From a virus (taxonomy: Duplodnaviria; Caudoviricetes): DNA of 64,000 bases. Positions 11,873 to 38,276 of this stretch are shown piece after piece. The DNA lies in IMG/VR virus record IMGVR_UViG_3300005434_000009, positions 1 through 64,000 of that record. The stretch is one strand, 5' to 3'. The stretch's first letter is position 1. Every line of letters starts with the position of its first letter. The translations under genes and the position numbers were made by a program. Below the pieces are notes generated by a model. That model saw only the letters and a list, made by a program, of their open reading frames with translations, had not been told where the DNA came from and ran no database searches.

Positions 11873-11923
11873 TTGCATCGTCATGCGTTGTAGCGGGCCA
11901 GGGAAGCGCCATCAGGTCGCCGG

Positions 11924-18800: not shown

Positions 18801-19654
18801 GAGGCCGCCGCCGTGGTCGAGACAGGTCGTCCGGCGATGTCCACCTCGCGGACCACGAACGCACGGTTGGTCTTACATTTCGCCGTGCCGGAGTCGGTCA
18901 GAGGCCGGAGGTCGGACAGCTTGATCGTGCACTCCAGGAACCGGGTGGCCGCGTAGTCGTAGGACGACGCCTGAGCGGGGCTGGGCGAGAAGTGCAGGCC
19001 GTTGCCGCACTCGTTGGTGTCGCGCCAGTCATCACAAGTGACCTCGGTGCCGACCGTGTAGAGGGCGCCGTGGGCGGAGCGGTAGTCGTCCCGGACGGCC
19101 TTGAACACGGTGACGGTGTCTTCGTTAGGGAGTTGCGCCCCGTGGTAGTCGGCCCAGGTGGCGGGGGCTGACTGGTCGACAGCGGTGTGGTCGATGAGGA
19201 CCCCGCCTTCGATACAGGCGCGGCCGGAGTGCAGGTGCACTGCGGTGTGCGATGAGGCCCTCACCGTGCTGGAGCCGTAGGCCCTCACCGTGCTGGAGTC
19301 GCAGGCCGTCACCGTGCTGGAGCCGCAGGCCGTCACCGTGCTGGAGTCGTAGGCCCTCACCGTGCTGGAGCCGCAGGCCGTCACCGTGCTGGAGCCGTAG
19401 GCCGTCACCGTGCTGGAGCCGTAGGCCGTCACCGTGCTGGAGTCGTAGGCCGTCACCGTGCTGGAGTCGTAGGCCGTCACCGTGCTGGAGCCGCAGGCCC
19501 TCACCGTGCTGGAGTCGTAGGCCGTCACCGTGCTGGAGTCGCAGGCCGTCACCTCGATCCATACCCCCTGCGGGGAACGGATCTCGATCCAACCGACCTT
19601 GTCGGCGATCGCCTTGTTCAGTTCAACCTGGTTCTTGACGATGCGCTCGCTCAT
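18797..19654 (-). CDS. Octapeptide-repeat (beta-solenoid-like) protein with DUF7666-like C-terminus
   Basis: 12 x V(T/R)A(Y/C)(D/G)SST; C-terminal FKAV...Y.VG..V...ECGNGLHFS. Confidence 0.7.
   Translation of the reverse strand: MSERIVKNQVELNKAIADKVGWIEIRSPQGVWIEVTACDSSTVTAYDSSTVRACGSSTVTAYDSSTVTAYDSSTVTAYGSSTVTAYGSSTVTACGSSTVRAYDSSTVTACGSSTVTACDSSTVRAYGSSTVRASSHTAVHLHSGRACIEGGVLIDHTAVDQSAPATWADYHGAQLPNEDTVTVFKAVRDDYRSAHGALYTVGTEVTCDDWRDTNECGNGLHFSPSPAQASSYDYAATRFLECTIKLSDLRPLTDSGTAKCKTNRAFVVREVDIAGRPVSTTAAAS
19256..19552. repeat. 24-bp tandem repeat, 12 full units plus one partial
   Basis: caccgtgctggag(t/c)cg(t/c)aggcc(g/c)t units, contiguous, in frame. Confidence 0.95.
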
Positions 19655-22202: not shown

Positions 22203-22312
22203 GGCCACTCCCTGTCCTCCACCCACCCGGTCTCCCACCCTTTGATGAGGGAGGCGAAACCGATGCAGTCGACGGCCAGGACGGCGACACAGACGAGGAC
22301 CACGGCGATCAC
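22196..22312 (-). CDS. Small membrane protein (38 aa)
   Basis: MIAVVLVCVAVLAVDCIGFASL; GTGA overlap with MTase stop. Confidence 0.45.
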   Translation of the reverse strand: MIAVVLVCVAVLAVDCIGFASLIKGWETGWVEDREWPC

Positions 22313-23426
22313 GCGGCCACCGCCTCGGTTGAAACCAGACGGGGCAGGAGAAGCCGTAGGGCGGCCTCCGCCTGTTGCGGGATGACGCCGTTACCCAGAA
22401 GCTTCAGCTGCTGGTTACGGGTCAGTCCGGGGACGTCGCACACCCAGCCTTCGGGGAGGCCCATGAGCCATTCCACGAACGGTGCGGCCAACTGCCGGCC
22501 ACCACGCAGGCCTAGAACAGTCGGGGCGGGTGCGGGCCGTCCGAGGAGGGCTTCCCATCGTCGGATGGCGGGTTCGTATCCGGCCCAGTCCAGAACACGT
22601 CCGTCAACGTCTGGCCGGCGTGGTGGGCACTGTCCGGGTTCGACCGGCCCGAGGTGGCGTTCCTGGTCCCCCGCGAGTCCGCGACCGTCGGCGTCGGCAG
22701 GAGCATCACGGCGTTCGGTAGCTGGTTGTTCCTGCACGGGTCGTCGCTGACCGATCCGTCGGACAGCACCCGGTTCTTCCTCGCCGACGGGCCTTTGTGA
22801 TCCCTGCTCGTCGGGGTGGGAAGCAACGCGATCGCGTCGTCCAGATTCCGTTTGCCTTGGATGAACATCCGCCGGAACGCCGTCTTCGTCGACATCGACC
22901 TGCTCGCTGAGTCTACGTCCCTGGCCTGAGGCGTCGGCAGCAGTGATGAAGATCCGCTCCCGGCGGTGGGGGGCTCCAACGGCGGAAGCTCGTAGGCTTC
23001 CCCAGCACGCGTCATACCCGATTTGGGCCAGGTCGCCGACGGCTCGGGCAAGCTCCCCAGCGCCAGCGATAGCGCTGACGTTCTCCAGGACGACGAGTCG
23101 TGGTCGTAGCGTGCGAATGGCTCCGGCAACTGCCGGCCAGATGGCCCGCTCATCCTCTGCGCCCTTCCTCTTCCCTGCCTGCGACCAGGGCTGGCAGGGC
23201 CAGCCGGCGGTGATGACTTCGACCGGTTCGGCCCGTGCCCAGTCCATGGCGATCAGGTCGTGGTGGTTCGGGATGCCAGGGTGGTTGTGGGCGAGCAGTG
23301 TTGAGGCTCCAGCGTCGATGTCGCACACCCACGCCAACTCGCCACCCAGCACGGCCTGCACGGCCATATCAAGGCCGCCGTTCAATAGCCTGAGCACAGG
23401 GAACCGATTCGGAGCTGCTCAGACAT
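22309..23426 (-). pseudogene. C5 cytosine DNA methyltransferase, disrupted at motif I
   Basis: Motifs IV (AGWPCQ), VI (LENV), VIII (HRRERIF), IX (FVEWLMG), X (LGNGV) intact; ATG 23426 reads MSEQLRIGSLCSGY then a 5-nt insertion creates TGA and shifts GGLDMAV out of frame. Confidence 0.85.
22512..23153 (-). CDS. Alternative-frame ORF nested in the MTase gene (M.EcoHK31I beta-like, LLPTP repeats)
   Basis: 213-aa open frame with SD-like AGGAAGG; SATWPKSGM..GEAY motif; three LLPTPxxxD repeats. Confidence 0.6.
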   Translation of the reverse strand: MSGPSGRQLPEPFARYDHDSSSWRTSALSLALGSLPEPSATWPKSGMTRAGEAYELPPLEPPTAGSGSSSLLPTPQARDVDSASRSMSTKTAFRRMFIQGKRNLDDAIALLPTPTSRDHKGPSARKNRVLSDGSVSDDPCRNNQLPNAVMLLPTPTVADSRGTRNATSGRSNPDSAHHAGQTLTDVFWTGPDTNPPSDDGKPSSDGPHPPRLF

Positions 23427-23997
23427 AGGACATCACCCCCCGTGGTGGCGAGGTGCGCTCGCCGGTCAGCCTGCGACGTGCGGCGTCGTAGGTGCGATGG
23501 CACGGGACGCACATACGCTCGTAATCAGCGACGTTGTCGTATCGCCCGGTCAGATTGGCCCACTCATAGCGGACATCGGGGGCGCCAGTCCCGCACTGCT
23601 CGCAACGGGACGGTTTGCCCCGAGCGGCGGCGACGCGCAAGTGCAGAGCGGTGTAGCTGGCACCTGACCCGCGCCAGCTGCCGTTACGCTCGCCGGTCTG
23701 GTCGCGCGGTACCGCTGGCCTTCGTTCAGCGATGAACCGCTCAACCAGCGCTTGCGCCTTATACCCGGACCCGATCACGGTGTCGATCTCGCGGATGGTT
23801 GCGCCGTCGGCGTACATCTGCCGAACAGCCTCAACAAGATCCGGCGGATAGTCCCGTTTCGGTCGACCAGGCGAGGGGCGTTCGCGTTCCCGCAAGCGCG
23901 CTCGACACACGGGCGAGCAGGAGCGGGCGGTGAGGGACTTTGTCGTCCACCGAGATCCGCAGTAATCGCAGGTCTTCTCCCGCAGCGAGGATGGCAT
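23419..23997 (-). CDS. HNH/His-Me finger homing endonuclease-like protein
   Basis: CxxC..CS..C, HTH-like middle, G.RN.SW.G..SY..LH.RV..RGKP..CEQC..WAN..Y..MC..CH. Confidence 0.75.
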   Translation of the reverse strand: MPSSLREKTCDYCGSRWTTKSLTARSCSPVCRARLRERERPSPGRPKRDYPPDLVEAVRQMYADGATIREIDTVIGSGYKAQALVERFIAERRPAVPRDQTGERNGSWRGSGASYTALHLRVAAARGKPSRCEQCGTGAPDVRYEWANLTGRYDNVADYERMCVPCHRTYDAARRRLTGERTSPPRGVMSYV

Positions 23998-24038
23998 CAG
24001 AGTCCGCCGTAACCGGTGCAGAGACTCCCGATCTTCAC
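23997..24038 (-). pseudogene. Original 5' end of the MTase (13-codon stub MKIGSLCTGYGGL*)
   Basis: GTGA overlap with upstream gene, complete motif I, TGATG overlap into HNH gene. Confidence 0.85.
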
Positions 24039-27688: not shown

Positions 27689-29056
27689 TCAGCGCGGGGT
27701 GATCCGCACCGTCTCCGGTCGGAACGTCCGTGTGCCCCGGCCCACCGGGAACAGCTCCACGGTGCACAAGGCGTCGATCAGAGCCCGCTGAACGTGGAAA
27801 CCGGCCGCCTCGAACTTCTCCTCCCGTTCCTTCTCCGCAAGGTTGAGGAAGGGGCCGATGATGTCGAAGCGGCCGGAATCGGTCATGCGGAGCTCCACCG
27901 CATCCAATCTCGCCCGCACCCGGCTGGTCATCAACCGGAACTGCGCGGGGGTGACGACCGGGTCGTCGGTGAACTCCTCGGCGAGTTCCCGCAGCTGCCG
28001 GTGCAGGTCGTCCGCCTCGGCCCGCAGGGCGTCCAGGTCGGGTTTGTCCCGGTCGACGATGTACTCGAACGCGCCCGGCTCACCCAGGATGAGCAGCACG
28101 GTGTAGGTGACGTAGTCGTCCACCGGTTGGGCGAGGCGGTTGACGTGTTTCATGGACCGGCAGCGGTAGATGCGTTTCCCGTGGGAGGCGCCGCCGCCGT
28201 GGACGAGCAGCCCACACACCCCACACCTTCCGATCCCGGTCAACAGTTGGGTGGCGCCGGGGGTGCCGGTCCGGCGTTCGGGGCGGGACAGGATGTCCAC
28301 CACATCCCGCCACACCCCTTCATCGACCAGCGCCTCCCACTCAGCGCGGACGTCCATGATCTCGCCCTTGTAACGACGTTTCCCACAGTTGCGGGGGTTC
28401 AACAACACCCGGCGGACGTTGTCGATCCGCCACACACTGTTCTGCCCGGTGCGCAACCCGGCGTTGTTCCAACGGCGGGCGATCTCAGCCAACGGCACAC
28501 CCGACTGCGCCCACACGTAGCCGTCACGGATGGCGTCGGCTTCTTCGGGGACGATCTCGACACCGCGACTGTTGTAGCCGAAGGGTCGCCGGCCGCCCAT
28601 GCGTCGGCCTTGCTCGGCGGCCTGGCGGTGTGCGCGGATCTGCCTCTCCGACTTCATGTCGATTTCGTGCTGCGCGACCTCGCCCAGCAACCCGATCAAC
28701 AGTCTCCCAGATGGGGACGTCGGGTCCATGTCGGTGCCCTGGACGAGGGCGACGACCACGTTGTGGGCTTGGCAGGCCTCAACGAGCGCGAGACGGTCCC
28801 GGGGGTTGCGGGTGAGCCTGTCCAACGCCCAGGCGACGATGACGTCCACGCGGCGGTCCTGGACGGCTTTGAGCATGGCCTGGAACTGGGGGCGGGGTTT
28901 GCGTCCGGAGGCGGACACGTCGTTCTCGGTGTAGACCACCGTCTTGGTCCAGCCTCGTTGCTGGATGAGGCGTTCGCAGTCCTCGAGCTGCCGGGCCACG
29001 CCGAGGCCTTCGCCGACGCGGTCCTGCGAAATCCTCACGTATATGGCGGCTCTCAC
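27689..29056 (-). CDS. int: Large serine integrase
   Basis: AAIYVRIS (catalytic Ser), DRLTRN, GGRRPFGY, recombinase domain, LLTGIGRCG.CG Zn ribbon, coiled coil. Confidence 0.95.
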   Translation of the reverse strand: MRAAIYVRISQDRVGEGLGVARQLEDCERLIQQRGWTKTVVYTENDVSASGRKPRPQFQAMLKAVQDRRVDVIVAWALDRLTRNPRDRLALVEACQAHNVVVALVQGTDMDPTSPSGRLLIGLLGEVAQHEIDMKSERQIRAHRQAAEQGRRMGGRRPFGYNSRGVEIVPEEADAIRDGYVWAQSGVPLAEIARRWNNAGLRTGQNSVWRIDNVRRVLLNPRNCGKRRYKGEIMDVRAEWEALVDEGVWRDVVDILSRPERRTGTPGATQLLTGIGRCGVCGLLVHGGGASHGKRIYRCRSMKHVNRLAQPVDDYVTYTVLLILGEPGAFEYIVDRDKPDLDALRAEADDLHRQLRELAEEFTDDPVVTPAQFRLMTSRVRARLDAVELRMTDSGRFDIIGPFLNLAEKEREEKFEAAGFHVQRALIDALCTVELFPVGRGTRTFRPETVRITPR

Positions 29057-29107
29057 GTGCGCTAGACTAGCCCCCAGGCCAGCGGAAGCACGTGTTTCTA
29101 GCGTACG
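29056..29107. other. Candidate attP
   Basis: Imperfect inverted repeat CGTGCGCTAGA (29056) / TCTAGCGTACG (29097), 10/11, 30-bp spacer, just upstream of int. Confidence 0.55.
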
Positions 29108-29131
29108 TTGCAGGTATAGATGGGGGCGGCC

Positions 29132-29341
29132 ATGACCAGCACAAAGACGGTGCGAGTACCTAAGCCGGCCCCGCCGACTGAGCCGCCCCGTTCCGGCGCC
29201 TTCCGCTTCTGGCTGGGAACGGCCCCGAACCCCTTCCCCGAGTACACCCCGCTCGACGAGTGTGAACACTGCGGGGCGATGGTCCTCACCGCCACCTTGT
29301 CCCGACACCACGCCTGGCATCGACGTCAGGCCCACATCTGA
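29132..29341 (+). CDS. Small CxxC/HxxH protein, possible recombination directionality factor
   Basis: CEHC..HHAWH; divergent from int across attP. Confidence 0.4.
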   Translation: MTSTKTVRVPKPAPPTEPPRSGAFRFWLGTAPNPFPEYTPLDECEHCGAMVLTATLSRHHAWHRRQAHI

Positions 29342-29382
29342 TGGTGTCAGGGTCACCGGTAGTGGGAGAGGAAGGTGGGGGG

Positions 29383-29898
29383 ATGAGCGAACTGGTCGAG
29401 TGGTTGACCGCGATCCTGGACGAGCACGAGCGGGTGGCGCGGGCTGCGGACGAGAAGGCGTTGAGCCCCTGGCGCAACTCCAACGGACTCGTCAAGCACT
29501 CCGGACCACCCGAGGGTGGACATGGGCGCGACAATGGCCTCTGGGACGACGAGGGAACTTCGGGCATGAAGGTGGACCACCAGCTGTGCATGCTCGGTGA
29601 GATCGCCGAGCATGTGGCCCTGCACGATCCGGCGGCCGTCCTAGCTCTCATCCAGGCGCAGCGACAGATTTTGGCCGCCCACGCCCCGACCCGGTACACC
29701 AACGCCGACCTTGGGATCAAGGACGCACCCGTTTGTCTCACCTGCCATGCGGTGATGGACTCCCCCGAGGATTGGCCAGACGAAGCAGACTGGTCCTACC
29801 CCCTGGTCCAGCGCTCTTTCCCCTGTCCGACTGTTCGGGCCCTTGCTTCCGCCTACCGGCACGCACCGGGCTGGGATGAGGCGTGGGGGTCGACATGA
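29383..29898 (+). CDS. DUF6221-like protein
   Basis: LVEWL.A.LDE.ER.ARAA..HDPA.VL......ILA.H..CPTVRALAS.Y...PGW.E.W. Confidence 0.75.
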   Translation: MSELVEWLTAILDEHERVARAADEKALSPWRNSNGLVKHSGPPEGGHGRDNGLWDDEGTSGMKVDHQLCMLGEIAEHVALHDPAAVLALIQAQRQILAAHAPTRYTNADLGIKDAPVCLTCHAVMDSPEDWPDEADWSYPLVQRSFPCPTVRALASAYRHAPGWDEAWGST

Positions 29899-30212
29899 CC
29901 GACGCGAGGATCGAGTTCATCCGCCGCTGCTTGGACGCCGAAGAGCAGCACATCCGACAGGACGCGGCGAGGGCCCGGGAGATCCGGACCGCGTGGGGTT
30001 TGCCGCAACACGAGCCGACTGGGCTGCTGTCCACCGACTCCCGGATGCTCCCCATCGAGGCGCACAGGGAGATCGTGGACACCTGCGAGCACTACCTGCA
30101 CGAGTACGAGTCGGGCATCGATCCCTGCGCTAACGGGGTTCTCGATGCGCTCGTGGCCGCGTACAGGGAGCACAGCTTCGACGGCCGACACCCCAGTTGG
30201 GGGCCGACGTGA
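29895..30212 (+). CDS. Second, shorter DUF6221-like protein
   Basis: IEFIRRCLDAEE..R..IEAHREIV..L.ALVAAY. Confidence 0.55.
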   Translation: MTDARIEFIRRCLDAEEQHIRQDAARAREIRTAWGLPQHEPTGLLSTDSRMLPIEAHREIVDTCEHYLHEYESGIDPCANGVLDALVAAYREHSFDGRHPSWGPT

Positions 30213-30886
30213 CCCGCCCTGGAACGTTCGCCTGGTTCGGCGCGAGCACCGTGTGGTTCGGAGCCGCAACCCTCTCGTTCTCTGGTCTGGACGGCCTAGC
30301 CCAGTCCTGCTACATCTCCCCCACACTCGCTCCGCTCATGCCCCTGGTGATCGACGTCGGGGTTGCTGTCGCCGCCTGGGTGTGGCGCAGAGGTGTCAAC
30401 CCTGACGCGGCACGGTTAGCCGGCCGGATGACGTGGAGCCTGTTGGTGCTCACCGTTGTGGGTAACGGGTCGCATCTGGGCATGGAGGCCAGTCACGTCC
30501 TCCCGCCGTGGTGGGCGGCCGCGATCGTTGGAGCGGTGCCGCCTGCCGTCGCTGGAGCCGTCGCTCACCTGCTGGTGCTGCTCGGGCGAGGCGATGTGCA
30601 GCTGGATGTACAGGAGCCCGTTATTTGCGCGCAGGAGCCCGAGGTAATTGCACAGCGCAAACCGGCCCCTGCACCGTCTCGGCCGAAGCGGACCAGCGTA
30701 GCCGCACCCACCGACAGAACGGTTTCCGAGACCCGGGCCGCTGCTCTCCTCGCCTCCGGGGCAGGGAGACGGCGGATCAGCCGTGAGCTTGGGGTGTCGG
30801 AGCATCAGGCCCGGGTGTTGCTTGAGCAGCACGCGGCGGAGAAGACCCCGAACAATGGTCACCCGGTGTTAGAGGAGGCGAAATAG
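30209..30886 (+). CDS. DUF2637 (SpdA-like) membrane protein with C-terminal HTH
   Basis: Four TM segments, LSFSGL, PLVIDVG, GN.SH, VPP; C-terminal GRRRISRELGVSE. Confidence 0.75.
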   Translation: MTRPGTFAWFGASTVWFGAATLSFSGLDGLAQSCYISPTLAPLMPLVIDVGVAVAAWVWRRGVNPDAARLAGRMTWSLLVLTVVGNGSHLGMEASHVLPPWWAAAIVGAVPPAVAGAVAHLLVLLGRGDVQLDVQEPVICAQEPEVIAQRKPAPAPSRPKRTSVAAPTDRTVSETRAAALLASGAGRRRISRELGVSEHQARVLLEQHAAEKTPNNGHPVLEEAK

Positions 30887-31332
30887 TGGGCTGCGACATC
30901 CACCTGATCGTCCAGGCCCGTCGTGACGGGAAGTGGGAAGACGTGGAACTCAACCTGGACGGGACCAACGAGTACAACGAATCGTTCTGGGAGTCTCAGT
31001 CCTACGCCACGTTCGCGGTCCTGGCAGCTGTGCGCAACTGGCCCGAGTCAGGTCTCACTCCCATCTCGACTCCACGCGGGCTGCCGGACGACTTCGAGTG
31101 CCAGGACGACCGCGTGCCCTCGCGCCGTCGTTTCAACCTGGGAGCCCTCGTCGGCGACGTGGAGCGCAACGGCAAGGACTTGGGCGAGCACTCCCACTCC
31201 TGGGTCACCCTCGCTGAACTGAAGGCTGTTCCGGAGGGCCAGCAGTGGGCGTTGCCTGAGGGCTGGATCCCGGAGCTGGAGAAGTACGGCGCACCCGATG
31301 ACGTCCGGCTCGTGTTCGGCTTTGACTCGTGA
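30886..31332 (+). CDS. Conserved phage hypothetical protein
   Basis: MGCDIH..Y.TFA.LA.VRN..RGLP.D..HS.SW.TL.EL..RLVFGFDS. Confidence 0.7.
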   Translation: MGCDIHLIVQARRDGKWEDVELNLDGTNEYNESFWESQSYATFAVLAAVRNWPESGLTPISTPRGLPDDFECQDDRVPSRRRFNLGALVGDVERNGKDLGEHSHSWVTLAELKAVPEGQQWALPEGWIPELEKYGAPDDVRLVFGFDS

Positions 31333-31490
31333 CAGCCCTCCTCATCGCCTTCGTGGTCTGGCTCTTCTGGCCGGAAAAGACGCGCTGGCATCCCTTCGAG
31401 GGCATCTACAACTTCAACCGTAAGACCGGGCAACTGAAGATCGCGGTCACGTTGCCGACCAAGAAGAACGCCAGGAAGAGGAAGAGATGA
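31329..31490 (+). CDS. Small membrane protein (53 aa)
   Basis: GTGA/ATGA overlaps; hydrophobic N-terminus, basic tail. Confidence 0.5.
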   Translation: MTALLIAFVVWLFWPEKTRWHPFEGIYNFNRKTGQLKIAVTLPTKKNARKRKR

Positions 31491-31708
31491 GCCGTTCGCA
31501 CCCGCGCTGCTGGACGGGCGAAGCCTACGTCCACACCTGCCACGAGCCGTCTGGTCGAACCTGCCTGGACTGCGACCGGCCCGCTGGAACGCCGTGGGGG
31601 CCGTACTGGTGCCCGGATTGCGACGTGAAGCGACTCGACCGTTGCACCGCTGGGTTGATGGAGATCCAGGCGGCACTGGACGAGCAACGCGAACTGAGGC
31701 AGTCGTGA
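31487..31708 (+). CDS. Cys-rich small protein
   Basis: CLDC..WCPDC. Confidence 0.55.
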   Translation: MSRSHPRCWTGEAYVHTCHEPSGRTCLDCDRPAGTPWGPYWCPDCDVKRLDRCTAGLMEIQAALDEQRELRQS

Positions 31709-31821
31709 CCCCCACCATCGCCTCCCTCTTGGCTGCTCTCCTGGTATGGGGAACACGGATCGAGGTTCGGGTCAGGCGGGAGCAGAGGCCGGCACCGGAG
31801 AGCGTGGAGGTGGAGGGCTGA
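31705..31821 (+). CDS. Small hydrophobic protein (38 aa)
   Basis: Coupled at both ends. Confidence 0.4.
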   Translation: MTPTIASLLAALLVWGTRIEVRVRREQRPAPESVEVEG

Positions 31822-32132
31822 TGGGCGGCTGGATGACGTACGGCCGCTTGCGCTCCCGGAACAACTTGCAGCGGAAGCCCGACGACGACCCAGACCCCTA
31901 CTGGCGAGATCAGAGTAAGCACTCCTACGCCTCCGGCAACCCAGTCCGCGCGCTGCTCGCAGGCGAGCTGAACAGGATGGAGCGCGACTACCTGGACCCG
32001 CAGTACCCGGAGCCCCCGTTCGCCGCCCGGTCGCCTGGCAGCGACCCGCTCACCGAGTGCGCCACCGCCACTGGAGTGGACCGTGAGGTCGTCCGTCGGG
32101 TGCTCCGTCATGTGTTCCGAGAGTCCCCATGA
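31821..32132 (+). CDS. Hypothetical protein
   Basis: TGATG overlap; ATGA overlap into FtsK gene. Confidence 0.55.
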   Translation: MGGWMTYGRLRSRNNLQRKPDDDPDPYWRDQSKHSYASGNPVRALLAGELNRMERDYLDPQYPEPPFAARSPGSDPLTECATATGVDREVVRRVLRHVFRESP

Positions 32133-34213
32133 CCGAGCCCGTCCCGGCTGTCCTTGTCTCCGACGAGGAGTTCGCCCGCCGCTTCAACGCCCGCCAGGCT
32201 GTGGCCGCCCGGGCGAACGTCGCCCGCTCCGACGTGGTGACTGTCGCCCGGGTCACCCGCCGTGTCGCCACCCACGACCGCACCCGGGCGGTATGCCGGG
32301 AGATCGCCTACATCCCAGGTGGGGTGGCAGCGGCGGCAAAGTGGTGGCGGGAGAACTGCACGGGGGCCGGATACCAGCGGGCGATCCGTGACGCCGAAGC
32401 GAAAGGCGACTACGAAGCCGTCATCCAGCTGCGGAAGTTGGCGGACGACGAGCGGCATCGCCGGTTCGAACGGATCATGACCTACATCCGGGCCCCGCAG
32501 GAGCTGCTGAAAGCCCTCGTCGTCATCGCCGTCGTCGCCGTCGGCGGCCTGCTGCTGCTGGGTGTGGCGGCTGCGTTGGCGTTCGGGGATCCCACCCTGG
32601 CCACCGGGCCCATCCGGGCCGTCATGTGGGCGGTCGCCACAGCGGTATGGCTGTGCACCGTCGGCGGCAGCCTGCTGGTGGGCGGGTTGTGTGGGCTGGT
32701 CGTGCTGTGCCTGTGGGCTGCTGGGAGGCGGGCGGGGAACGTCCCGGAGTTCCTGGCGCCAGCGGCGGAGCGGGAGGCCCGGCGGGAGGAAATCACGCCC
32801 GCCCTGGCGGTGATGGCGTTCCGGGACCTGGGGGTCGCCGAGCTCCGCAAACGGATCCTGGCGTTGCCGGACAACGGGGCGCCCATGATCTCTCAGATCC
32901 GCCCGGCCGGGTGCGGGGTGGAGTTCGACGCCACCCCACCCAGAGGTTCCACATCCACGGCGGTGATCCTGTCCCGCCACGACCGGCTGTCGGAGAACAT
33001 CAACCGCCACCCGCACGAGGTGCACCTGTCGGTCCCGCAGAACCAGCCGGGGACGGTGCGGGTGTGGGCGGCGGACCCGGGGGCGTTGGACGAACCGATC
33101 GGGGCGTCTCCGCTGGTCTACGACGACGAGATCAAAGCGGACTACCGGCGAGGCGCGGCCCCGTGGGGTGTGACGCTGCGGAACGACCCGGCTGAGATCC
33201 GGCTGTATCAGATCCACGTGCTCATCACCGGCAAGTCGAACCAGGGCAAAACGGCGGCGCTGCGGTCGCTGGCTTTGTGGCTGTCCCTGGATAAGCGTCC
33301 TGAGCTGCGGATAGCTGACCTGAAGGGGATGAACCCCACCACGAAACGGTCGGATTGGGCGATGTTCGAGGGCATCGCCACCGAGTTCATCGCCGGCCCC
33401 ACCGATGACCACGTCGCTGAGGCCACGGAGATGTTGGAGCGGGTGGTGGCGGAGATGAACCGTCGTATTCAACGGGGCGGGAACTGGGATCCGCTGATCG
33501 CCATCGTCGACGAAGCCCAGGTGGCGTACATGTGCCCTGCGAAAGGGCCGGACGGGCGACCCTACGGCGGGTCGAAGAACACCTCCCGGTTCCTGACCGC
33601 TGTGCGGCAGATCCAGAACCAGGGGCGGGCGGTTGATGTGCTGCTGTGGGAGGGGACCCAGGACCCCACGAACCAGAACCTCCCCATCCTGGCCCGCGAG
33701 GGCGCCCACCTGCGGATTTGCCTGGCGGTGGGGACGGAGGAGAAGTCCCGGATGGCGTTGGGTGACAACGCGGTGGAAGGCGGGGCCGCACCGCACCGTC
33801 TACGGCCTGGCCTGGACAAGGGGACTGTGGTGGTGGCGGGTGACGGTGCACCGTTGTCGGCCGGGCAGGCGTCGGTGACGATCCGAACCCACTTCATCGA
33901 TGACAAGGACGCCACCGCCATCGCCAACCGGGCGAAGAAACTGCGCGGCCCGCTGGTCCCCCGCCCCCCGGAGCAGGAGCGGGACCTGCTTGAGGACGTG
34001 TTCGAGCTGATGGGCGACGCCGAGCAGGTGCCGGCCGCGACGATGGCCCGCCTGCTGCACCCGGTGGACCGCCGGTACGCCGTGATGGACGGGGTTCAGC
34101 TCAAGGCCCGACTGGACGATCTGGGGGCTCTGGTGACGAAGAACAAGGGTGTTCCGATGGTGTACCGGTCCCGCATCCAGGCGGCGATGGAATCCCGGGG
34201 GGAGGGCGCGTGA
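32129..34213 (+). CDS. FtsK/SpoIIIE-family DNA translocase of TraB/TraSA type
   Basis: Two TM helices, Walker A GKSNQGKT, ADLKG, Walker B IAIVDEAQ, GTQDPT, C-terminal winged-helix-like region. Confidence 0.85.
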   Translation: MTEPVPAVLVSDEEFARRFNARQAVAARANVARSDVVTVARVTRRVATHDRTRAVCREIAYIPGGVAAAAKWWRENCTGAGYQRAIRDAEAKGDYEAVIQLRKLADDERHRRFERIMTYIRAPQELLKALVVIAVVAVGGLLLLGVAAALAFGDPTLATGPIRAVMWAVATAVWLCTVGGSLLVGGLCGLVVLCLWAAGRRAGNVPEFLAPAAEREARREEITPALAVMAFRDLGVAELRKRILALPDNGAPMISQIRPAGCGVEFDATPPRGSTSTAVILSRHDRLSENINRHPHEVHLSVPQNQPGTVRVWAADPGALDEPIGASPLVYDDEIKADYRRGAAPWGVTLRNDPAEIRLYQIHVLITGKSNQGKTAALRSLALWLSLDKRPELRIADLKGMNPTTKRSDWAMFEGIATEFIAGPTDDHVAEATEMLERVVAEMNRRIQRGGNWDPLIAIVDEAQVAYMCPAKGPDGRPYGGSKNTSRFLTAVRQIQNQGRAVDVLLWEGTQDPTNQNLPILAREGAHLRICLAVGTEEKSRMALGDNAVEGGAAPHRLRPGLDKGTVVVAGDGAPLSAGQASVTIRTHFIDDKDATAIANRAKKLRGPLVPRPPEQERDLLEDVFELMGDAEQVPAATMARLLHPVDRRYAVMDGVQLKARLDDLGALVTKNKGVPMVYRSRIQAAMESRGEGA

Positions 34214-34274
34214 CGATCGCGAAAAACCATCGGATCCAGGCCGATCCGAGGTTCGGAGCCCCCGCTCTCCCATG

Positions 34275-34320
34275 CCACCTGAGCAGCATAAGTGCAGGTC
34301 AGCGTGCTATACTCAGGTGG
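34275..34320. promoter_or_regulatory. Inverted repeat overlapping leaderless promoter of tyrosine recombinase (possible res/lox-like site)
   Basis: CCACCTGAG/CTCAGGTGG perfect 9-bp arms, 28-bp spacer; TATACT 6 nt before GTG 34320. Confidence 0.5.
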
Positions 34321-35363
34321 TGGACGGCGTGAAGCATTCGCAACCTCGCCCCCCGAGTCAAGCTCCCGTTGAGGATCCAAAAAACGGGGTCGACCAGGTC
34401 GTCTTGAGCACCGTTAACAAAACTTATGGCGGTCCGCTCGCCGAGGAACTGGACGATCTCACGCGCGCCGATCTCGATAGCGCGCCACCACAGAACACGC
34501 TGGACGCCTACAGGTACGCACACGAGTCGTTCGCCAAGTTCTGCCGTGAGATCGGCTCGCCCATCTGCCCGGCTCCGGAGTCCACGTTGACCCGCTATGT
34601 GTCCCGGATGAACCGGGACGGGTACGCGCCCGCCACCATTACCCAGCACGTCGGGGCGATCCGGGCGATGCACAACCAGCACGGCCACCCGGGCGAGCCG
34701 AACACCTACCGTGCGTCGCTACTGCTGCGGAAGTACCGGCGACAGCTGGCTCAGGGAGACGGGCAGCGGCAAGCCATCCCGATCGAGCCGGAGTCGCTCC
34801 GCCGCATGATCGCCACCCTGGACGTGACCACAGTGAAGGGGCAGCGGGACCGGCTGGCGTTGACGCTCGGGTTCTGCGGGATGCTCCGCCGCTCCGAGCT
34901 TGTCGGGCTGCGAGTACACGATGTGACCGTGACCGGCGACGGAGTGACTCTGCGGGTGCGGACCAGCAAGACGGACAAGGACTCGCAGGGGCGCGTGGTG
35001 CCGATCCCACCGCAGGGCGATCCTGACCCGAAGGCGCTCACGAGGGCGTGGTTGAACCTGGTCAATTCCGGCTTCCTGCTGCCACGTGTGTCCCGCTCGG
35101 ACGAACTGATGGACGGGGCGTGGCGCGCGGCCGGTGTGTGCGACATGGTGGCCCGTTGCGCCCGGGATGCACACCTTCCGTCGCCGGATCGCTACACGGC
35201 CCACTCCCTGCGGGCCGGTGGCCTCACCGCATCGCTGCGCGCCGGCACCCCCGCTGGCGTGGCCGCACGGCACGGAGGCTGGTCACCGGAGTCCGCGATG
35301 GTGGGCCGGTACGCCCGTGTTGCCGATCAGTGGAAGCACAACGCCATGAGAGGCGTCCTATGA
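34320..35363 (+). CDS. Cre-like tyrosine recombinase
   Basis: SAM-like N-domain (NTLDAYRY), R (MLRRSEL), K (SKTDK), HSLR, HGGW, RY. Confidence 0.9.
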   Translation: MDGVKHSQPRPPSQAPVEDPKNGVDQVVLSTVNKTYGGPLAEELDDLTRADLDSAPPQNTLDAYRYAHESFAKFCREIGSPICPAPESTLTRYVSRMNRDGYAPATITQHVGAIRAMHNQHGHPGEPNTYRASLLLRKYRRQLAQGDGQRQAIPIEPESLRRMIATLDVTTVKGQRDRLALTLGFCGMLRRSELVGLRVHDVTVTGDGVTLRVRTSKTDKDSQGRVVPIPPQGDPDPKALTRAWLNLVNSGFLLPRVSRSDELMDGAWRAAGVCDMVARCARDAHLPSPDRYTAHSLRAGGLTASLRAGTPAGVAARHGGWSPESAMVGRYARVADQWKHNAMRGVL

Positions 35364-35692
35364 GCGAAGCGCGCCGGTTCTGGACCTACGGTAAGGACCA
35401 GTGGTCGGGCCCGCTGATCTCACGCAGCGGGGACGAGTACGGCAACTCCACCGTGGTCTTCCGCCTGCCGGGTGAGCGGGCGCTGATCGTGGCGTACAAC
35501 TGGCCGCTGCGCCGTGAGCTGGAACCGTGCGAAGGCCGAGTCGAGTGGGGCGCGGTGAACGATGACCACGGCGCCCCGATGGACAACCCGTTGCCGCTCG
35601 CGGGCCCCGACTTGCGGGGCTTGCCTCCGGAGGAGTGGAAGCTGGTTCGGCGTGAGCTTTGGGCCAGCCCGTGGCAGGAGGTGCTGGAATGA
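35360..35692 (+). CDS. Hypothetical protein
   Basis: ATGA overlap. Confidence 0.55.
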   Translation: MSEARRFWTYGKDQWSGPLISRSGDEYGNSTVVFRLPGERALIVAYNWPLRRELEPCEGRVEWGAVNDDHGAPMDNPLPLAGPDLRGLPPEEWKLVRRELWASPWQEVLE

Positions 35693-36000
35693 GCGGCGAC
35701 GGCTGGCCGTACATGTCTGACGCTGAGATCGAAGCCGTCCAGCGCAAGGTGAGCGAACCGGGTTACGTCCCACCTCCGTATCCGCCTCTTCACGGTCTCC
35801 TGCACCAGCTTCTGTCCTCAATCGACCGGAAGCCTGACATCCACCGCGTTCGGGTCGACAGCACGTGGTGGGACGTCCTGGGTTGGGAGTGCTCCTACCG
35901 GTATCAGGCGAAGTGTCGGTGCGGTTGGTACGGCGACGAGACCAAGTCGAAGGTGACAGCTGAGCGGCAGGCGGAGTGGCATGCGAGCTCGAAGCTTTAG
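35689..36000 (+). CDS. Hypothetical protein with CxCGW..H motif
   Basis: AKCRCGWY..WH. Confidence 0.55.
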   Translation: MSGDGWPYMSDAEIEAVQRKVSEPGYVPPPYPPLHGLLHQLLSSIDRKPDIHRVRVDSTWWDVLGWECSYRYQAKCRCGWYGDETKSKVTAERQAEWHASSKL

Positions 36001-36014
36001 CAGGTGGGGACGTT

Positions 36015-36321
36015 ATGAGTGACGTGATTCGCTGGGAAGACCCACCGGAATGGCGAACCCTCCCGCTGTTTGATGAACTCCACGCCCAACCGTTGCGGTG
36101 GGCGGTGATCTGGGAGGAAGGCAGCGGGACGACCGATGAGCTGTGGGCACTCCAGAAGGCCTTGCTATCTACATCCCCGCGTGAAGTCCGACCTGGAGCA
36201 ACGACACCAGGTCAGGCCCGACGGTGGCGACTCCTACTACCCCAAGGCGCTGCGCGCGGTGTACGTACCGTTCGGGGAATCGTGGCATGGTCCGACCTAC
36301 CGGGGCCAGTCGGATGCCTGA
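36015..36321 (+). pseudogene. Probably frameshifted small protein
   Basis: N-part (IRWEDPP..RWAVI) and C-part (..LRAVYV..SDA*, overlapping next start) are in different frames; break near 36165. Confidence 0.35.
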
Positions 36322-36565
36322 CTCCCCGCCGACGCTCACCCGCGTGTCCATCGACCTGAACGTGCGAGTCCGTGGGCGGCAGACTCTCGCTGGCCTGGAG
36401 GACGTCCACGGTCCGATCGAGGTGGGCCAACTGGTGGAGGTGTTCGAGGAGGAGTCCGGTGCCTACGGTCCGGGGTATGTGATGGACATCGACACGAAGA
36501 AGCGGCTGGTGTACCTGTCGGTGGACTGGGCTGGGATGCGACTACCGGAGGCTGACTGTGGTTGA
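36314..36565 (+). CDS. Hypothetical protein
   Basis: MPDSPPTL...; coupled. Confidence 0.6.
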   Translation: MPDSPPTLTRVSIDLNVRVRGRQTLAGLEDVHGPIEVGQLVEVFEEESGAYGPGYVMDIDTKKRLVYLSVDWAGMRLPEADCG

Positions 36566-37028
36566 GCTCGACATCATTGAGTCCGAAGCCGTTCCAGCTG
36601 ACGGTAAGGACGGGCGGCCGGCGTCATTCATCCAGTGGAAGGGCACCGACCTGTGCGCTGATTTCTTCTGCCCGTGCGGGAGCGGTGGGCACATCGACGC
36701 CGGGTTCGCCTACTCGGTGCACTGCACAGAATGTGGTCGCCGCTGGCACCTGGCCCCCGTGCTGTTGGTGCGGGAGATGAAACCCGGTGAGTTCGACCCG
36801 GGTGAGGCGGTGATCGACCTCTACGACGATGACGCCGACGAGAGAATGGCGATGCCGGTATTCACCAGGAACTGGCCTGGCCACAAGTGCCCGGTATGCG
36901 GGGTGATGATCGCAGAGGTGAACACCACCCGGGACGGTGACGCCGCCCAAACGCTCCCCTGTGGTTGTCGTTGGGACCGCAGCCGTGAGGGGCAGTGGAA
37001 GCACCAGGGCGAGCACCGGCATGTCTGA
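36558..37028 (+). CDS. Zn-ribbon hypothetical protein
   Basis: IQWKGTDLC.DF.CPCG..H.D..C.EC; CPVC. Confidence 0.6.
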   Translation: MVELDIIESEAVPADGKDGRPASFIQWKGTDLCADFFCPCGSGGHIDAGFAYSVHCTECGRRWHLAPVLLVREMKPGEFDPGEAVIDLYDDDADERMAMPVFTRNWPGHKCPVCGVMIAEVNTTRDGDAAQTLPCGCRWDRSREGQWKHQGEHRHV

Positions 37029-37236
37029 GCCTAAGACCCAGCGGGTCCTCGTCCACGTCCGCTACCCCGACGATCCTCCACTGGAGATGGTGTACAGCGC
37101 TGACGGGACGGTGGAGCAGTTGGCCGGCCCTCCGGGTGTGGTGATGGAGGTCCCGGTGTCGGAACCTGGGCCGACCATGACGGTTCGGCTCGAGCACAGC
37201 CCGGAGGACGGGACGACATGGACGGAGCTGACGTGA
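37021..37236 (+). CDS. Hypothetical protein
   Basis: 71 aa, coupled. Confidence 0.5.
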   Translation: MSEPKTQRVLVHVRYPDDPPLEMVYSADGTVEQLAGPPGVVMEVPVSEPGPTMTVRLEHSPEDGTTWTELT

Positions 37237-37516
37237 GCGACGCCGAGTCCATCGCCCTGATCCGCTGGCTGGACGAACGGCCGCCCACCGAACGCGGGTG
37301 ATGGAGCAACAGGGACCTTACGGAACTCGCCGGTGACCCGGCCGAGCAAGGTGCGGGTGACCGAGTACAGCAACATCGCTGGGGCGTCTCGCTCGGTATA
37401 TGTGGCCTGATGGTCGGGTGCGGCGGTTCGACCGCAACCGTGGAGATCTGGGGTGGACCGAGGTGGATGATGCCTGATCTCGTCGGACGAGTACACCGAC
37501 GTTTGCCCCTGAACGC

Positions 37517-37563
37517 AACAAAGGACCCCACCTCCCCGATCCCGTAGGACCGAAGAGGTGGGG
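37517..37563 (-). terminator. Terminator between convergent late and plus-strand operons
   Basis: CCCCACCTC/GAGGTGGGG 9-bp stem, TTTGTT tail on minus strand. Confidence 0.6.
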
Positions 37564-37658
37564 CCAATGTGGGGTTCCGCCGCCCCAGGAGTCGCTCCGG
37601 GGGGAGCTGACGACGGAACCCCGATCCGTGGGGCGGTTAGTCAGATGTTGGTATGGCT

Positions 37659-38276
37659 CTACGGAAGGACAGCCGCGTAATACCGTTGCCCCGACGCGAC
37701 GAGCGAGGCCGCGGTGAACGACGACGGCAGATCGGTCTGCCCAGTGAGCGTGCCGATGATGCGTGGGACTAGAGCCGTCTCGTTGATGACACCGGTGCCC
37801 ACGGACAACCCCGGCAACGTGGGGGCTGTCGCCGCTGTGACCACCAAGATCGCCAACGCGTACCGCTGCCCGGCGACCTTCGCGTAACTGGACGACCACG
37901 ACCGGGTGTAGGCGGTATTGGCCGCTGCGAAGATCGTGGTGTCGTTGGCGATCGACGCGACCAGAGTGCCGTTGTCGGAGCCGTCCACCGTGTACAGGCC
38001 GAAGCGGACCAGGGTGGGAGTCGCGCCCGCCGCTGTCCCGCCGGAGTACACGCGGACCTGGGTGGTGGTCTCCGTTTTTCGGGCGGTGAAGAAACTCAGC
38101 CGCAACGACTGGGACACCGTGGTCAGGGCGTTGCTTGCCGCCATGGTTACCGGGAACGTCGCTTCCCCGGTTGCCAGGGCGTCAGGGTCGCGCAGCAACG
38201 CCGGCGGCAGGTTGTCCCCGTCGGGGATCTCGGTGAGAGTCCCGCCGTTGTTGTAGACGGGCCTGCGGGAGGCCAC
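37659..38276 (-). CDS. Putative virion/tail-associated protein
   Basis: T/A/G-rich beta-type composition; end of tail operon. Confidence 0.55.
   Translation of the reverse strand: MASRRPVYNNGGTLTEIPDGDNLPPALLRDPDALATGEATFPVTMAASNALTTVSQSLRLSFFTARKTETTTQVRVYSGGTAAGATPTLVRFGLYTVDGSDNGTLVASIANDTTIFAAANTAYTRSWSSSYAKVAGQRYALAILVVTAATAPTLPGLSVGTGVINETALVPRIIGTLTGQTDLPSSFTAASLVASGQRYYAAVLP

What the first reader, a model, noticed from the sequence alone, without database searches (positions are those of the whole stretch)
29132..35363. Conjugative-element (AICE-like) transfer module built into a tailed phage
Seen: a coupled plus-strand operon starting at the candidate attP carries two DUF6221-like genes, a DUF2637/SpdA-like membrane protein, small membrane ORFs, a TM-anchored FtsK/SpoIIIE ATPase and a Cre-like recombinase, inside a genome with an apparently intact tail and lysis set. 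Established: in mycelial actinomycetes a single TraB/TraSA FtsK-like protein transfers circular dsDNA, helped by Spd membrane proteins. Inference: the excised phage circle may spread by hyphal conjugation or intramycelial spreading as well as by virions, with the tyrosine recombinase resolving circle dimers. I found no obvious 8-bp clt/TRS array.
Basis: partly seen in the sequence, partly recalled or inferred. Interest (0 to 1): 0.8.

Follow-up and report, generated by a model that had tools for sequence, protein, structure and literature searches.

The report
Conjugation-type DNA pump module in phage
A soil phage of a filamentous actinomycete carries a membrane DNA pump closely related to the pump that small Streptomyces mobile elements use to push naked double-stranded DNA between hyphae, so the phage may spread without particles; this is untested here and has one laboratory precedent, plasmid-phage pZL12.

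Summary
The window is most of a 72.6-kb metagenomic tailed-phage contig. Between a minus-strand serine integrase and the lysis and tail genes lies a plus-strand block. It encodes two DUF6221 proteins, a DUF2637 membrane protein with a C-terminal HTH, small ORFs, a 694-aa membrane-anchored FtsK-fold ATPase, and, after a 190-bp gap, a 319-aa Xer-like tyrosine recombinase.

The ATPase is 43-48% identical over its full length to TraB of Streptomyces AICEs. In trees it joins them (99% support), apart from chromosomal FtsK and EccC. It belongs to a metagenome-only subclade. All eight sampled contexts of that subclade are phage-like, and most have the same DUF2637-TraB-recombinase order. The module is therefore a stable phage feature, not a nested AICE.

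No clt/TRS repeat array was found. The DUF2637 protein shows no detectable homology to SpdB. Transfer itself remains an inference.

The idea is not new: plasmid-phage pZL12 has a tested tra locus, and Spd homologues in phages have been discussed in print. This scan has also noted TraB-in-phage modules before, on other DNA in at least 65 genomes. My verdict is a new variant of a known kind, of moderate interest.

The parts
27689..29356 (-). Large serine integrase, the phage's own integrase. The ORF runs to 29356, but the likely start is GTG at 29056, about 455 aa.
   Evidence: phrog_95 E 4.6e-97. NCBIfam serine-recombinase families. The catalytic domain begins at ORF residue ~100.
29057..29382 (.). 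Divergent control region between int and the module. It holds a weak 6-bp inverted repeat (29061-29066 and 29097-29102) and a possible 73-aa ORF (29120-29341) with no family hit.
   Evidence: Sequence read. No Pfam hit for the ORF. No attB is available for comparison.
29383..29898 (+). DUF6221 protein. An alternative start is ATG 29341; ATG 29383 follows a GGAGAGGAAGG ribosome-binding site.
   Evidence: Pfam PF19730 E 4.7e-19. phrog_6326. 53% identical to L006 6517-7008.
29883..30212 (+). Second, divergent DUF6221-like protein of 109 aa.
   Evidence: Pfam PF19730 E 6e-4, below the cut-off. GC3 is 0.89.
30197..30886 (+). DUF2637 polytopic membrane protein with a Pro-rich linker and a C-terminal helix-turn-helix. 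It is the candidate membrane partner of the pump.
   Evidence: Pfam PF10935 E 1.8e-7. phrog_733. Hydropathy and sequence. The architecture is conserved in six phage contigs. dN/dS is 0.24 against L005.
30886..31332 (+). 148-aa soluble protein of unknown function (phrog_10141).
   Evidence: phrog_10141 E 1.4e-23. 68% identical to L006 7685-8131.
31329..31490 (+). 53-aa protein with one N-terminal membrane helix and a basic tail. It is conserved in relatives.
   Evidence: Sequence. Homologues in L005, L006 and L035 at the same position.
31487..31708 (+). 73-aa Cys-rich protein, probably zinc-binding.
   Evidence: Sequence. No family hit.
31746..32132 (+). 128-aa protein of unknown function, coupled to the ATPase gene by a 4-nt overlap.
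   Evidence: ORF list. No family hit.
32129..34213 (+). TraB-like dsDNA translocase of 694 aa. It has N-terminal helices with two membrane spans, an FtsK-fold motor and a C-terminal winged-helix-like domain.
   Evidence: Family hits. 43% identity over the full length to the TraB of an AICE plasmid. Homologue list. Trees. AF2 model with pLDDT 79.6. Foldseek top hits are FtsK motor domains at E 1e-13. hhalign to pIJ101 Tra at 97.5% probability. dN/dS is 0.2.
34214..34403 (.). Non-coding gap. It contains the conserved motif GTGCAGGTCAGCGTGCTATACT (34292-34313, which includes an extended -10-like TGCTATACT). The motif is flanked by the 9-bp inverted repeat CCACCTGAG (34275-34283) / CTCAGGTGG (34312-34320). 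It is a candidate promoter-operator or recombinase site.
   Evidence: Sequence. Alignment with L005, L006 and L035 shows the core conserved and the arms changed on both sides in L006 and L005. The motif is unique in the window. It is found only in this gap in L005, L006, L007 and L035.
34404..35363 (+). Xer/Cre-like tyrosine recombinase of 319 aa, additional to the phage integrase.
   Evidence: Pfam PF00589. Weak XerD/XerC NCBIfam hits. An exact 319-aa protein is on record, and there are 274 mostly metagenomic relatives. It lies directly after TraB in L005, L006, L035, L036 and L042. 26% identical over the full length to pZL12.36c.
35364..37236 (+). Continuation of the plus-strand block: small ORFs of unknown function (36224-36565; 36558-37028, Cys-rich; about 37021-37236). 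Gene calls between 35364 and 36224 are uncertain.
   Evidence: tblastn of relatives' proteins. No family hits.
37524..37565 (-). Strong terminator-like hairpin that closes the convergent late (lysis and tail) operon and marks the right border of the block.
   Evidence: 19-bp stem followed by a T-run.

Best explanation
The block is a phage-adapted version of the actinomycete double-stranded-DNA transfer machinery, not a nested AICE.

Shown here:
- A membrane-anchored hexameric-type FtsK-fold motor of the AICE TraB lineage is encoded together with a DUF2637 membrane/HTH protein, small accessory proteins and an Xer-like recombinase.
- The block lies in the lysogeny-side region of a temperate siphovirus-like genome.
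- The set is inherited as a unit in a diverse lineage of soil phages whose integrases differ.
- The genes are under purifying selection.

Inferred:
- The host is a mycelial, sporulating actinomycete.
- After excision, or during infection, the phage genome is a double-stranded circle.
- TraB assembles in the membrane at hyphal contacts or cross-walls, recognises the phage DNA through its C-terminal winged-helix-like domain, and pumps it into the neighbouring compartment or hypha, helped by the DUF2637 protein.
- The recombinase, acting at a site in the gap after traB, returns multimers to monomers.
- The integrase then establishes the prophage, or lytic growth follows.
For: - Identity and family. 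TraB is 43% identical over 691 aa to the TraB of a 13.5-kb circular Streptomyces element with the order int-xis-DUF3631-primpol-TraB-SpdB-GntR. It is 47-48% identical to chromosomal copies that share that AICE gene set.
- Phylogeny. The phage and AICE proteins form one group at 99% SH-aLRT. Chromosomal FtsK, a 546-aa FtsK-like protein and EccC domains of one Streptomyces genome fall outside it.
- Link to a tested Tra. The motor profile matches pIJ101 Tra, an experimentally established transfer protein (hhalign 97.5%, E 7e-12).
- Fold. The top structural matches are the FtsK motor and the TcpA coupling protein. The Walker A and B residues are invariant in 30 homologues.
- Conserved phage context. 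All eight sampled contexts of the window's subclade are phage-like. Seven are other contigs (L005, L006/L007, L035, L036, L037, L042, L043). Six of these seven lie next to opposite-strand lysis or tail genes; L043 shows WhiB and HTH genes instead. DUF2637 is upstream of TraB in five, and an Xer-like recombinase directly follows TraB in five.
- Kor-like regulators. Two relatives have a divergent GntR or GntR-NUDIX gene, as in plasmid and AICE kil-kor/pif control.
- DUF2637 association. DUF2637 genes lie beside FtsK-like genes in Streptomyces genomes, and one occupies the SpdB position of an AICE.
- Selection. dN/dS is 0.2-0.4 for five module genes.
- Host. The phage encodes an SsgA-family protein (Pfam E 7e-21). 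That family is confined to morphologically complex actinomycetes; this last point is from my own knowledge.
- Literature. [quoted passage not shown] Thoma 2015 (PMC4447253) suggests that Spd homologues on phages help to spread phage DNA.
Against: - No clt/TRS-type repeat array or over-represented 8-mer was found in the module or in the genome.
- The DUF2637 protein has no detectable homology to SpdB of pIJ101 or of the AICE plasmid. Apart from TraB, no module gene matches an AICE gene.
- The C-terminal domain gives only weak winged-helix matches (E at least 0.17) and no profile match to an FtsK gamma domain.
- The Tra protein of the only tested phage precedent, pZL12, is only remotely related (hhalign 15%).
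- The host is unknown, and there are no expression or transfer data.
- Deep branches among Tra, FtsK and pZL12 are long and unresolved.
- FtsK-like genes also occur in lytic Streptomyces phages, where authors suggest other roles.
Confidence: 0.5

Rival explanations
1. The block is an FtsK/Xer-like resolution and segregation device. The membrane-anchored translocase works with the adjacent Xer-like recombinase to resolve and position phage circles at cross-walls or sporulation septa. This would, for example, secure the phage genome in every compartment or spore, with no transfer between cells.
For: - An Xer-like recombinase follows TraB directly in the window and in five of seven related contigs.
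- The recombinase has weak XerD/XerC matches, and its relatives carry Xer-type SAM-like N-domains.
- It is homologous to the recombinase of the non-integrating plasmid-phage pZL12.
- A conserved palindromic site lies between the two genes.
- Some relatives carry an FtsK gamma domain, either fused or as a separate gene.
- The phage also carries an SsgA-like septation protein.
Against: - The ATPase is nearest to AICE TraB, not to chromosomal FtsK.
- L037 has no recombinase after traB; in L043 only a separated, 202-aa integrase-family gene lies downstream.
- The phage has a serine integrase, so a plasmid-like state that needs dimer control is not evident.
- The recombinase has its own promoter-like motif and is not coupled to traB.
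Confidence: 0.2
2. The block is a lysogen-expressed exclusion or competition module. The prophage would use the pump and membrane proteins to block superinfecting phage DNA or incoming AICEs and plasmids, or to interfere with their spread, rather than to move its own DNA.
For: - The block lies in the lysogeny-side region, on the strand opposite to the late genes and co-oriented with the repressor-like HTH gene.
- In relatives it continues the cI-int transcription direction.
- In temperate actinophages this region commonly holds prophage-expressed defence genes; this point is from my own knowledge.
Against: - PADLOC gave no meaningful match; the only hit was a generic ATPase at E 8e-5.
- The nearest homologues belong to self-transfer systems.
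- The block is an eight-to-ten-gene conserved operon with its own recombinase, which is more than known exclusion genes need.
Confidence: 0.12
3. The block is a decaying remnant of an AICE that once inserted into an ancestral phage, and it now has no function for the phage.
For: - Only TraB is shared with AICEs, and the rep, xis and kor genes are missing.
- The tyrosine recombinase could be the remains of the AICE integrase.
Against: - All ORFs are intact.
- The catalytic residues are invariant.
- dN/dS is 0.2-0.4.
- The same order is kept across phages whose TraB proteins are only 50-84% identical and whose integrases differ.
- There are no flanking direct repeats.
- The recombinase shows no similarity to the AICE integrase.
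Confidence: 0.04

Closest known systems
Streptomyces plasmid-phage pZL12 / phage ZL12 (GQ919031; Zhong et al. 2010, J Bacteriol 192:3747, as cited in PMC3583192 and PMC7157519)
   Same: It is a tailed Streptomyces phage genome that also encodes an FtsK/SpoIIIE-like Tra protein (pZL12.71c, 725 aa) with adjacent genes and a GntR regulator. Conjugal transfer is reported to need the tra gene and two neighbours. It also carries a tyrosine recombinase (pZL12.36c) that is 26% identical over its full length to the window's recombinase.
   Different: pZL12 is a 90-kb extrachromosomal plasmid-prophage with ParAB. The window phage has a serine integrase and no partition genes. The two Tra proteins are only remotely related (hhalign 15%). 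The neighbours of the tra gene differ, and pZL12 has no DUF2637-TraB-recombinase order. I could not read the primary paper.
AICE TraB transfer modules (pSAM2/SLP1-type elements; here the 13.5-kb plasmid NZ_CP108827 and the chromosomal copies L008-L019)
   Same: The TraB proteins are 43-48% identical over the full length, with the same layout of membrane anchor, motor and C-terminal domain, and they form one well-supported clade. In both cases a polytopic membrane protein and small ORFs lie upstream of traB and a recombinase lies downstream.
   Different: The window has no AICE replication gene (Prim-Pol or DUF3631), no xis, and no GntR or DUF6284/RRQRL/SpdB homologues. Its recombinase is Xer-like and unrelated to the AICE integrase. 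The block lies inside a phage and has no att repeats of its own.
TraB-clt-Spd system of Streptomyces plasmids (pSVH1, pIJ101; Thoma et al. 2015, PMC4447253)
   Same: The FtsK-like motor matches pIJ101 Tra at the profile level. Membrane proteins are encoded alongside it. The cited paper already proposes that Spd homologues on phages phiC31 and VWB help to spread phage DNA.
   Different: There is no detectable homology of the DUF2637 protein to SpdB. No 8-bp repeat clt was found. The plasmids have no Xer-like recombinase next to tra.
FtsK-XerCD/dif chromosome dimer resolution
   Same: A membrane-anchored FtsK-fold translocase is paired with an Xer-like tyrosine recombinase, and a palindromic site lies nearby.
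   Different: There is one recombinase, not two. The site has 9-bp arms 28 nt apart, unlike the 11-6-11 layout of dif. The translocase belongs to the conjugative TraB lineage.

Membership tests
TraB/Tra dsDNA conjugative translocases of actinomycete plasmids and AICEs | FtsK/HerA-fold motor with Walker A and Walker B | tested here: met
   GKSNQGKT and VDEA are present and invariant in 30 homologues. Foldseek top hits are FtsK motor domains at E 1e-13.
TraB/Tra dsDNA conjugative translocases of actinomycete plasmids and AICEs | N-terminal membrane association | tested here: met
   Two hydrophobic spans at about 126-198 by hydropathy, modelled as long helices.
TraB/Tra dsDNA conjugative translocases of actinomycete plasmids and AICEs | C-terminal winged-helix domain that reads the clt repeats | tested here: inconclusive
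   The AF2 model of residues 605-694 (pLDDT 81.6) has H-H-H-beta-beta topology. Foldseek hits are mostly winged-helix proteins but weak, at E 0.17 or worse. There is no profile match to an FtsK gamma protein.
TraB/Tra dsDNA conjugative translocases of actinomycete plasmids and AICEs | Homology to an experimentally proven Tra protein | tested here: met
   hhalign against pIJ101 Tra gives 97.5% probability and E 6.7e-12 over 203 motor columns. Against pZL12.71c the probability is only 15%. pSVH1 TraB was not available to test.
TraB/Tra dsDNA conjugative translocases of actinomycete plasmids and AICEs | Groups with conjugative-element proteins rather than with chromosomal FtsK or EccC | tested here: met
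   Trees give a 99% SH-aLRT group with AICE TraB; FtsK and EccC fall outside. Deeper nodes are unresolved.
TraB-clt-Spd transfer system | cis-acting clt with direct 8-9-bp repeats near traB | tested here: not met
   No cluster of at least 4 identical 8-mers within 400 bp occurs outside a coding repeat. Counts of 1-mismatch clusters in 29000-37700 are not clearly above shuffles, 42 against 17-36. No 8-mer is over-represented. The power of these tests is low, because the recognised word is unknown.
TraB-clt-Spd transfer system | SpdB-type spread protein | tested here: not met
   The DUF2637 profile against SpdB of pIJ101 and of the AICE plasmid gives hhalign probability below 1%. There is only a positional analogy: a DUF2637 gene sits at the SpdB position of the AICE in L012 and beside FtsK-like genes.
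AICE (actinomycete integrative and conjugative element) | Own integrase at one end, with flanking att repeats | tested here: not met
   No significant direct repeats flank the block. The recombinase is Xer-like and unrelated to the AICE integrase.
AICE (actinomycete integrative and conjugative element) | Own replication gene (RepSA, RepAM or Prim-Pol) | tested here: not met
   No such family or homologue occurs in 29120-37496. The phage's primase/helicase lies elsewhere, at 12876-14765.
AICE (actinomycete integrative and conjugative element) | GntR (Kor) and NUDIX (Pif) regulation of transfer | tested here: not met
   Both are absent from the window. They are present in related phage contigs: GntR in L037 and a GntR-NUDIX fusion in L042.
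Xer/Cre-type tyrosine recombinases | Phage_integrase catalytic domain with the R..K..HxxR..Y residues, about 300 aa, and no arm-binding domain | tested here: met
   PF00589 E 2.7e-8. LRRSE, HSLRAG and GRYARV are read in the translation. XerD/XerC models hit weakly, far below their cut-offs. Relatives carry Phage_int_SAM_1/4 domains.
Xer/Cre-type tyrosine recombinases | A cognate core site with two inverted arms around a 6-8-bp spacer | tested here: inconclusive
   A conserved motif with 9-bp inverted arms lies upstream of the gene, but the arms are 28 nt apart and overlap a -10-like element.
Plasmid-phage of the pZL12 type | Tailed-phage genome plus an FtsK-like tra locus | tested here: met
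   Structural genes and TraB.
Plasmid-phage of the pZL12 type | Extrachromosomal maintenance by parAB, with no integration | tested here: not met
   A serine integrase is present. The only ParB-like gene is paired with a PAPS-reductase-like gene.

The most novel reading that the evidence does not exclude
A large, so far uncultured lineage of integrating temperate phages of mycelial actinomycetes routinely moves its genome as naked double-stranded DNA. It would use a phage-specific TraB-DUF2637-Xer module. The DNA would cross hyphal cross-walls during infection, or pass between mycelia from a lysogen. Virion-free transmission would then be a normal second route for these viruses, and the adjacent recombinase would handle circular DNA after passage through the pump, a step that is still unexplained for Streptomyces conjugation.
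Probability: 0.35. Interest if true: 0.8.

Novelty: new variant of a known kind. Interest (0 to 1): 0.55.

Why it matters
If the module works as its ancestry suggests, these phages blur the line between virus and conjugative element in a new way. They would be integrating tailed phages that can also spread through a mycelium, or to a neighbouring one, without capsids.

That would change how phage spread, host range and lysogeny are modelled in soil actinomycetes, which are the main antibiotic producers.

It would also supply a compact, natural test system of pump, partner and recombinase for an open question: how a closed circular double-stranded DNA passes a TraB pore.

The comparative result reported here gives concrete candidates for experiment: a phage-specific TraB subclade with a conserved gene order and a conserved site next to traB.

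Tried and rejected
- Phage collection. tblastn of TraB and of the DUF2637 protein against 50,697 phage records gave no match, and megablast of the block gave none.
- Plasmid collection. tblastn of the DUF2637 protein gave no match.
- PDB sequences. A profile search with the TraB alignment gave nothing.
- clt/TRS searches. Three approaches found no array. The only repeat cluster, at 19255-19553, is a coding 8-aa repeat.
- Circularity. There is no terminal overlap, and joining the contig ends does not complete TerL.
- Nested AICE. Rejected: there are no flanking repeats, no rep gene, and the position is conserved in relatives.
- Defence system. PADLOC gave only a generic ATPase hit.
- More distant recombinase homologues in Streptosporangium and Pseudonocardia genomes are not next to a TraB.
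- No tRNA genes were found in the window. The promoter scan found nothing.
- RNA evidence. No RNA holder is listed among the sequencing runs.
- Laying contigs of four runs showed the source contig spanning 26000-40000. Identical short pieces occur in a second sample, but no independent single contig bridges the borders.
- The primary pZL12 paper (PMC2897331) is not held.
- Adding pIJ101 Tra and pZL12 Tra to the tree gave long, unresolved branches.
Full report
**What the window is.** The window is the first 64 kb of a single 72,580-bp virus record. It was assembled from a rhizosphere metagenome, and identical short pieces occur in a second, unrelated sample.

The record has the layout of a temperate siphovirus:
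- A terminase large-subunit fragment is cut by the contig end. Portal and major capsid genes follow.
- A tape measure gene (56248-59694) and a tail protein gene come next.
- The lysis-side region holds a 1097-aa enzyme with an alginate-lyase domain.
- Then comes the plus-strand block under study.
- Next are a large serine integrase on the minus strand (27689-29356, phrog_95 E 4.6e-97) and an HTH repressor-like gene.
- Minus-strand early genes follow: a primase/helicase, a ParB-like gene paired with a PAPS-reductase-like gene, and an SsgA-family protein.

The contig is not closed, and joining its ends does not complete TerL. The integrase lies in the middle of the contig, so this is the phage arrangement rather than an integrated prophage.

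**The observation.**
- DUF6221 (E 4.7e-19), plus a weak second copy.
- A DUF2637 polytopic membrane protein with a Pro-rich linker and a C-terminal helix-turn-helix.
- Several small ORFs.
- A 694-aa ATPase with two membrane spans, Walker A GKSNQGKT and Walker B VDEA.
- A tyrosine recombinase.

Genes from 29883 to 34213 overlap by 1-16 nt. The corrections are these:
The real gene there is the serine integrase, whose likely start is GTG 29056.
- Only the 53-aa ORF has a membrane helix.
- The recombinase starts at TTG 34404 and is 319 aa, identical in length to the protein on record. A 190-bp non-coding gap precedes it.
- The plus-strand block continues to about 37236.

**What the ATPase is.**
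- No cultured phage in a 50,697-record collection has a tblastn match.
- The best plasmid match is a 13.5-kb circular Streptomyces element whose annotation reads as a textbook AICE: integrase, HTH, DUF3631, primase-polymerase, FtsK/SpoIIIE, SpdB, GntR. The two proteins align at 43% identity over 691 residues.
- A database search gave hundreds of ~705-aa Streptomyces proteins at about 50% identity. A closer series at 54-84% identity comes almost only from metagenomes.
- Chromosomal loci with the 47-48% homologues share the AICE gene set of the plasmid (GntR, DUF6284, SpdB, RRQRL protein, Prim-Pol, DUF3631, Xis, Int). With the window they share only TraB.
- In a motor-domain tree, the window lies in a subclade of metagenome proteins. 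That subclade sits next to the AICE proteins, and the two together have 99% support. The chromosomal FtsK, a 546-aa FtsK-like protein and the EccC domains of one Streptomyces genome lie outside.
- The profile of this family matches pIJ101 Tra, a proven transfer protein, at 97.5% hhalign probability.
- An AlphaFold model (pLDDT 79.6) shows long N-terminal helices, a RecA-like motor and a small C-terminal H-H-H-beta-beta domain. Foldseek puts FtsK motor domains and the TcpA coupling protein first.
- The C-terminal domain modelled alone looks like a winged helix, but its matches are weak.

**The module is a phage feature, not a nested element.** I looked up the contexts of seven members spread over the window's subclade. 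With the window itself, that makes eight sampled contexts.
- All are phage-like. Six of the seven lie next to opposite-strand lysis or tail genes: holin, CHAP or Rv2525c-type hydrolase, Gp80, a collagen-like protein, GDSL lipase and alginate lyase. Several also have cI/Cro-type regulators. L043 shows WhiB and HTH genes instead.
- None has an AICE replication gene.
- DUF2637 lies upstream of TraB in five.
- A 290-332-aa Xer-like recombinase lies directly downstream in five.
- The 53-aa membrane protein and DUF6221 recur.
- The relatives' main integrase is a tyrosine enzyme, whereas the window has a serine one. So the module has stayed in place while integrases were exchanged.
- Two relatives have a divergent GntR or GntR-NUDIX gene, which recalls the Kor and Pif regulators of plasmids and pSAM2.
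- dN/dS for five module genes is 0.2-0.4, and the catalytic residues are invariant.
- No direct repeats flank the block.

**What does not fit a simple 'AICE transfer module'.**
- Apart from TraB, no gene of the block matches an AICE gene.
- The DUF2637 protein shows no profile similarity to SpdB of pIJ101 or of the AICE plasmid. However, DUF2637 genes do sit beside FtsK-like genes in Streptomyces genomes and occupy the SpdB position in one AICE.
- No clt-type array was found by three searches. The one strong repeat in the genome is a coding 8-aa repeat elsewhere.
- The Tra protein of pZL12 is only remotely related.

**The recombinase and the gap.**
- The recombinase belongs to a small, mostly metagenomic family with Xer-type N-domains.
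- It is 26% identical over its whole length to the recombinase of the non-integrating plasmid-phage pZL12. This fits a multimer-resolution role.
- In the gap after traB lies a 22-nt motif containing an extended -10-like element. It is unique in the window and is conserved in the same gap of L005, L006/L007 and L035.
- The motif is flanked by 9-bp inverted arms that change on both sides in L006 and L005.
- It may be an operator-promoter or the recombinase's site. The 28-nt spacing of the arms is unlike known core sites.

**How it most likely works.**
- Shown: this is a TraB-lineage pump with membrane partners and a recombinase, conserved and under selection in temperate phages. The SsgA gene points to a sporulating, mycelial actinomycete host.
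- Inferred: the circular phage genome is pumped across hyphal walls or cross-walls and is then resolved to monomers. I give this reading 0.5.
- Rivals: an FtsK/Xer-like resolution and segregation role without intercellular transfer (0.2); a lysogen-expressed exclusion or competition function (0.12), for which PADLOC gave nothing; and a functionless remnant (0.04).

**Comparison with what is known.**
- Plasmid-phage pZL12 combines a tailed-phage genome with a tested FtsK-like tra locus.
- Thoma et al. 2015 proposed that Spd homologues on phiC31 and VWB help to spread phage DNA.
- FtsK-like genes in Streptomyces phages are mentioned generically in recent phage descriptions.
- I found no paper that describes this phage-specific TraB subclade or its DUF2637-TraB-Xer order.
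- Earlier notes of this scan report TraB-type modules in phages of at least 65 other genomes, with the same precedent. Within the scan this is a recurrent finding.

I class it as a new variant of a known kind, with moderate interest.

Noticed in passing
window 19255-19553 (minus strand): There are 12.5 tandem copies of a 24-nt unit at 93% match. They encode an 8-aa repeat (VTAYDSST / VTAYGSST) inside a gene that starts at about 19654. It is probably a beta-solenoid-type repeat protein in the early region, not a DNA site.
   Followed up: partly
window 17511-17948 (minus strand): The phage encodes an SsgA-family (SALP) protein (Pfam PF04686, E 7.2e-21). This points to a sporulating actinomycete host and to possible manipulation of septation.
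   Followed up: partly
window 9214-11927 (minus strand): A ParB-like protein (phrog_2159) is coupled to a PAPS-reductase-like protein (phrog_2302). This IbrA/IbrB-like pair has no known role in phages.
   Followed up: no
window 44483-47776 (minus strand): A 1097-aa multi-domain protein lies beside the lysis genes. It has an alginate-lyase domain (PF08787) and no PHROG match. Relatives carry alginate-lyase and pectate-lyase-like genes at the same place (L037).
   Followed up: no
L036 8797-9366; proteins P0022, P0025, P0037: In one related phage contig, a separate 189-aa gene with an FtsK gamma domain sits directly upstream of traB. In three homologues of 808-830 aa, precomputed Pfam annotation records an FtsK gamma domain. 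This suggests sequence-directed DNA handling in the lineage.
   Followed up: partly
L042 4805-5482; L037 4158-4412: A GntR-NUDIX fusion gene (L042) and a short GntR gene (L037) are transcribed divergently from the TraB operon of related phages. They resemble the KorSA and Pif regulators of pSAM2-type elements.
   Followed up: no
L005 9155-9499 and window 4097-4426: In L005 an RF-1-domain (release-factor-like) small protein lies inside the TraB operon. Its 40%-identical homologue in the window lies in the early region instead.
   Followed up: no
G001 contig 1, 4247294-4248895 and 3837673-3839158: In a Streptomyces genome, two further short FtsK-like genes (546 and 518 aa) each lie next to a DUF2637 gene. 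The FtsK-like plus DUF2637 pair is therefore a recurrent unit beyond the clade studied here.
   Followed up: no
window 22309-24038: According to earlier first-reader notes, an HNH gene interrupts a C5 methyltransferase here. I did not examine it.
   Followed up: no
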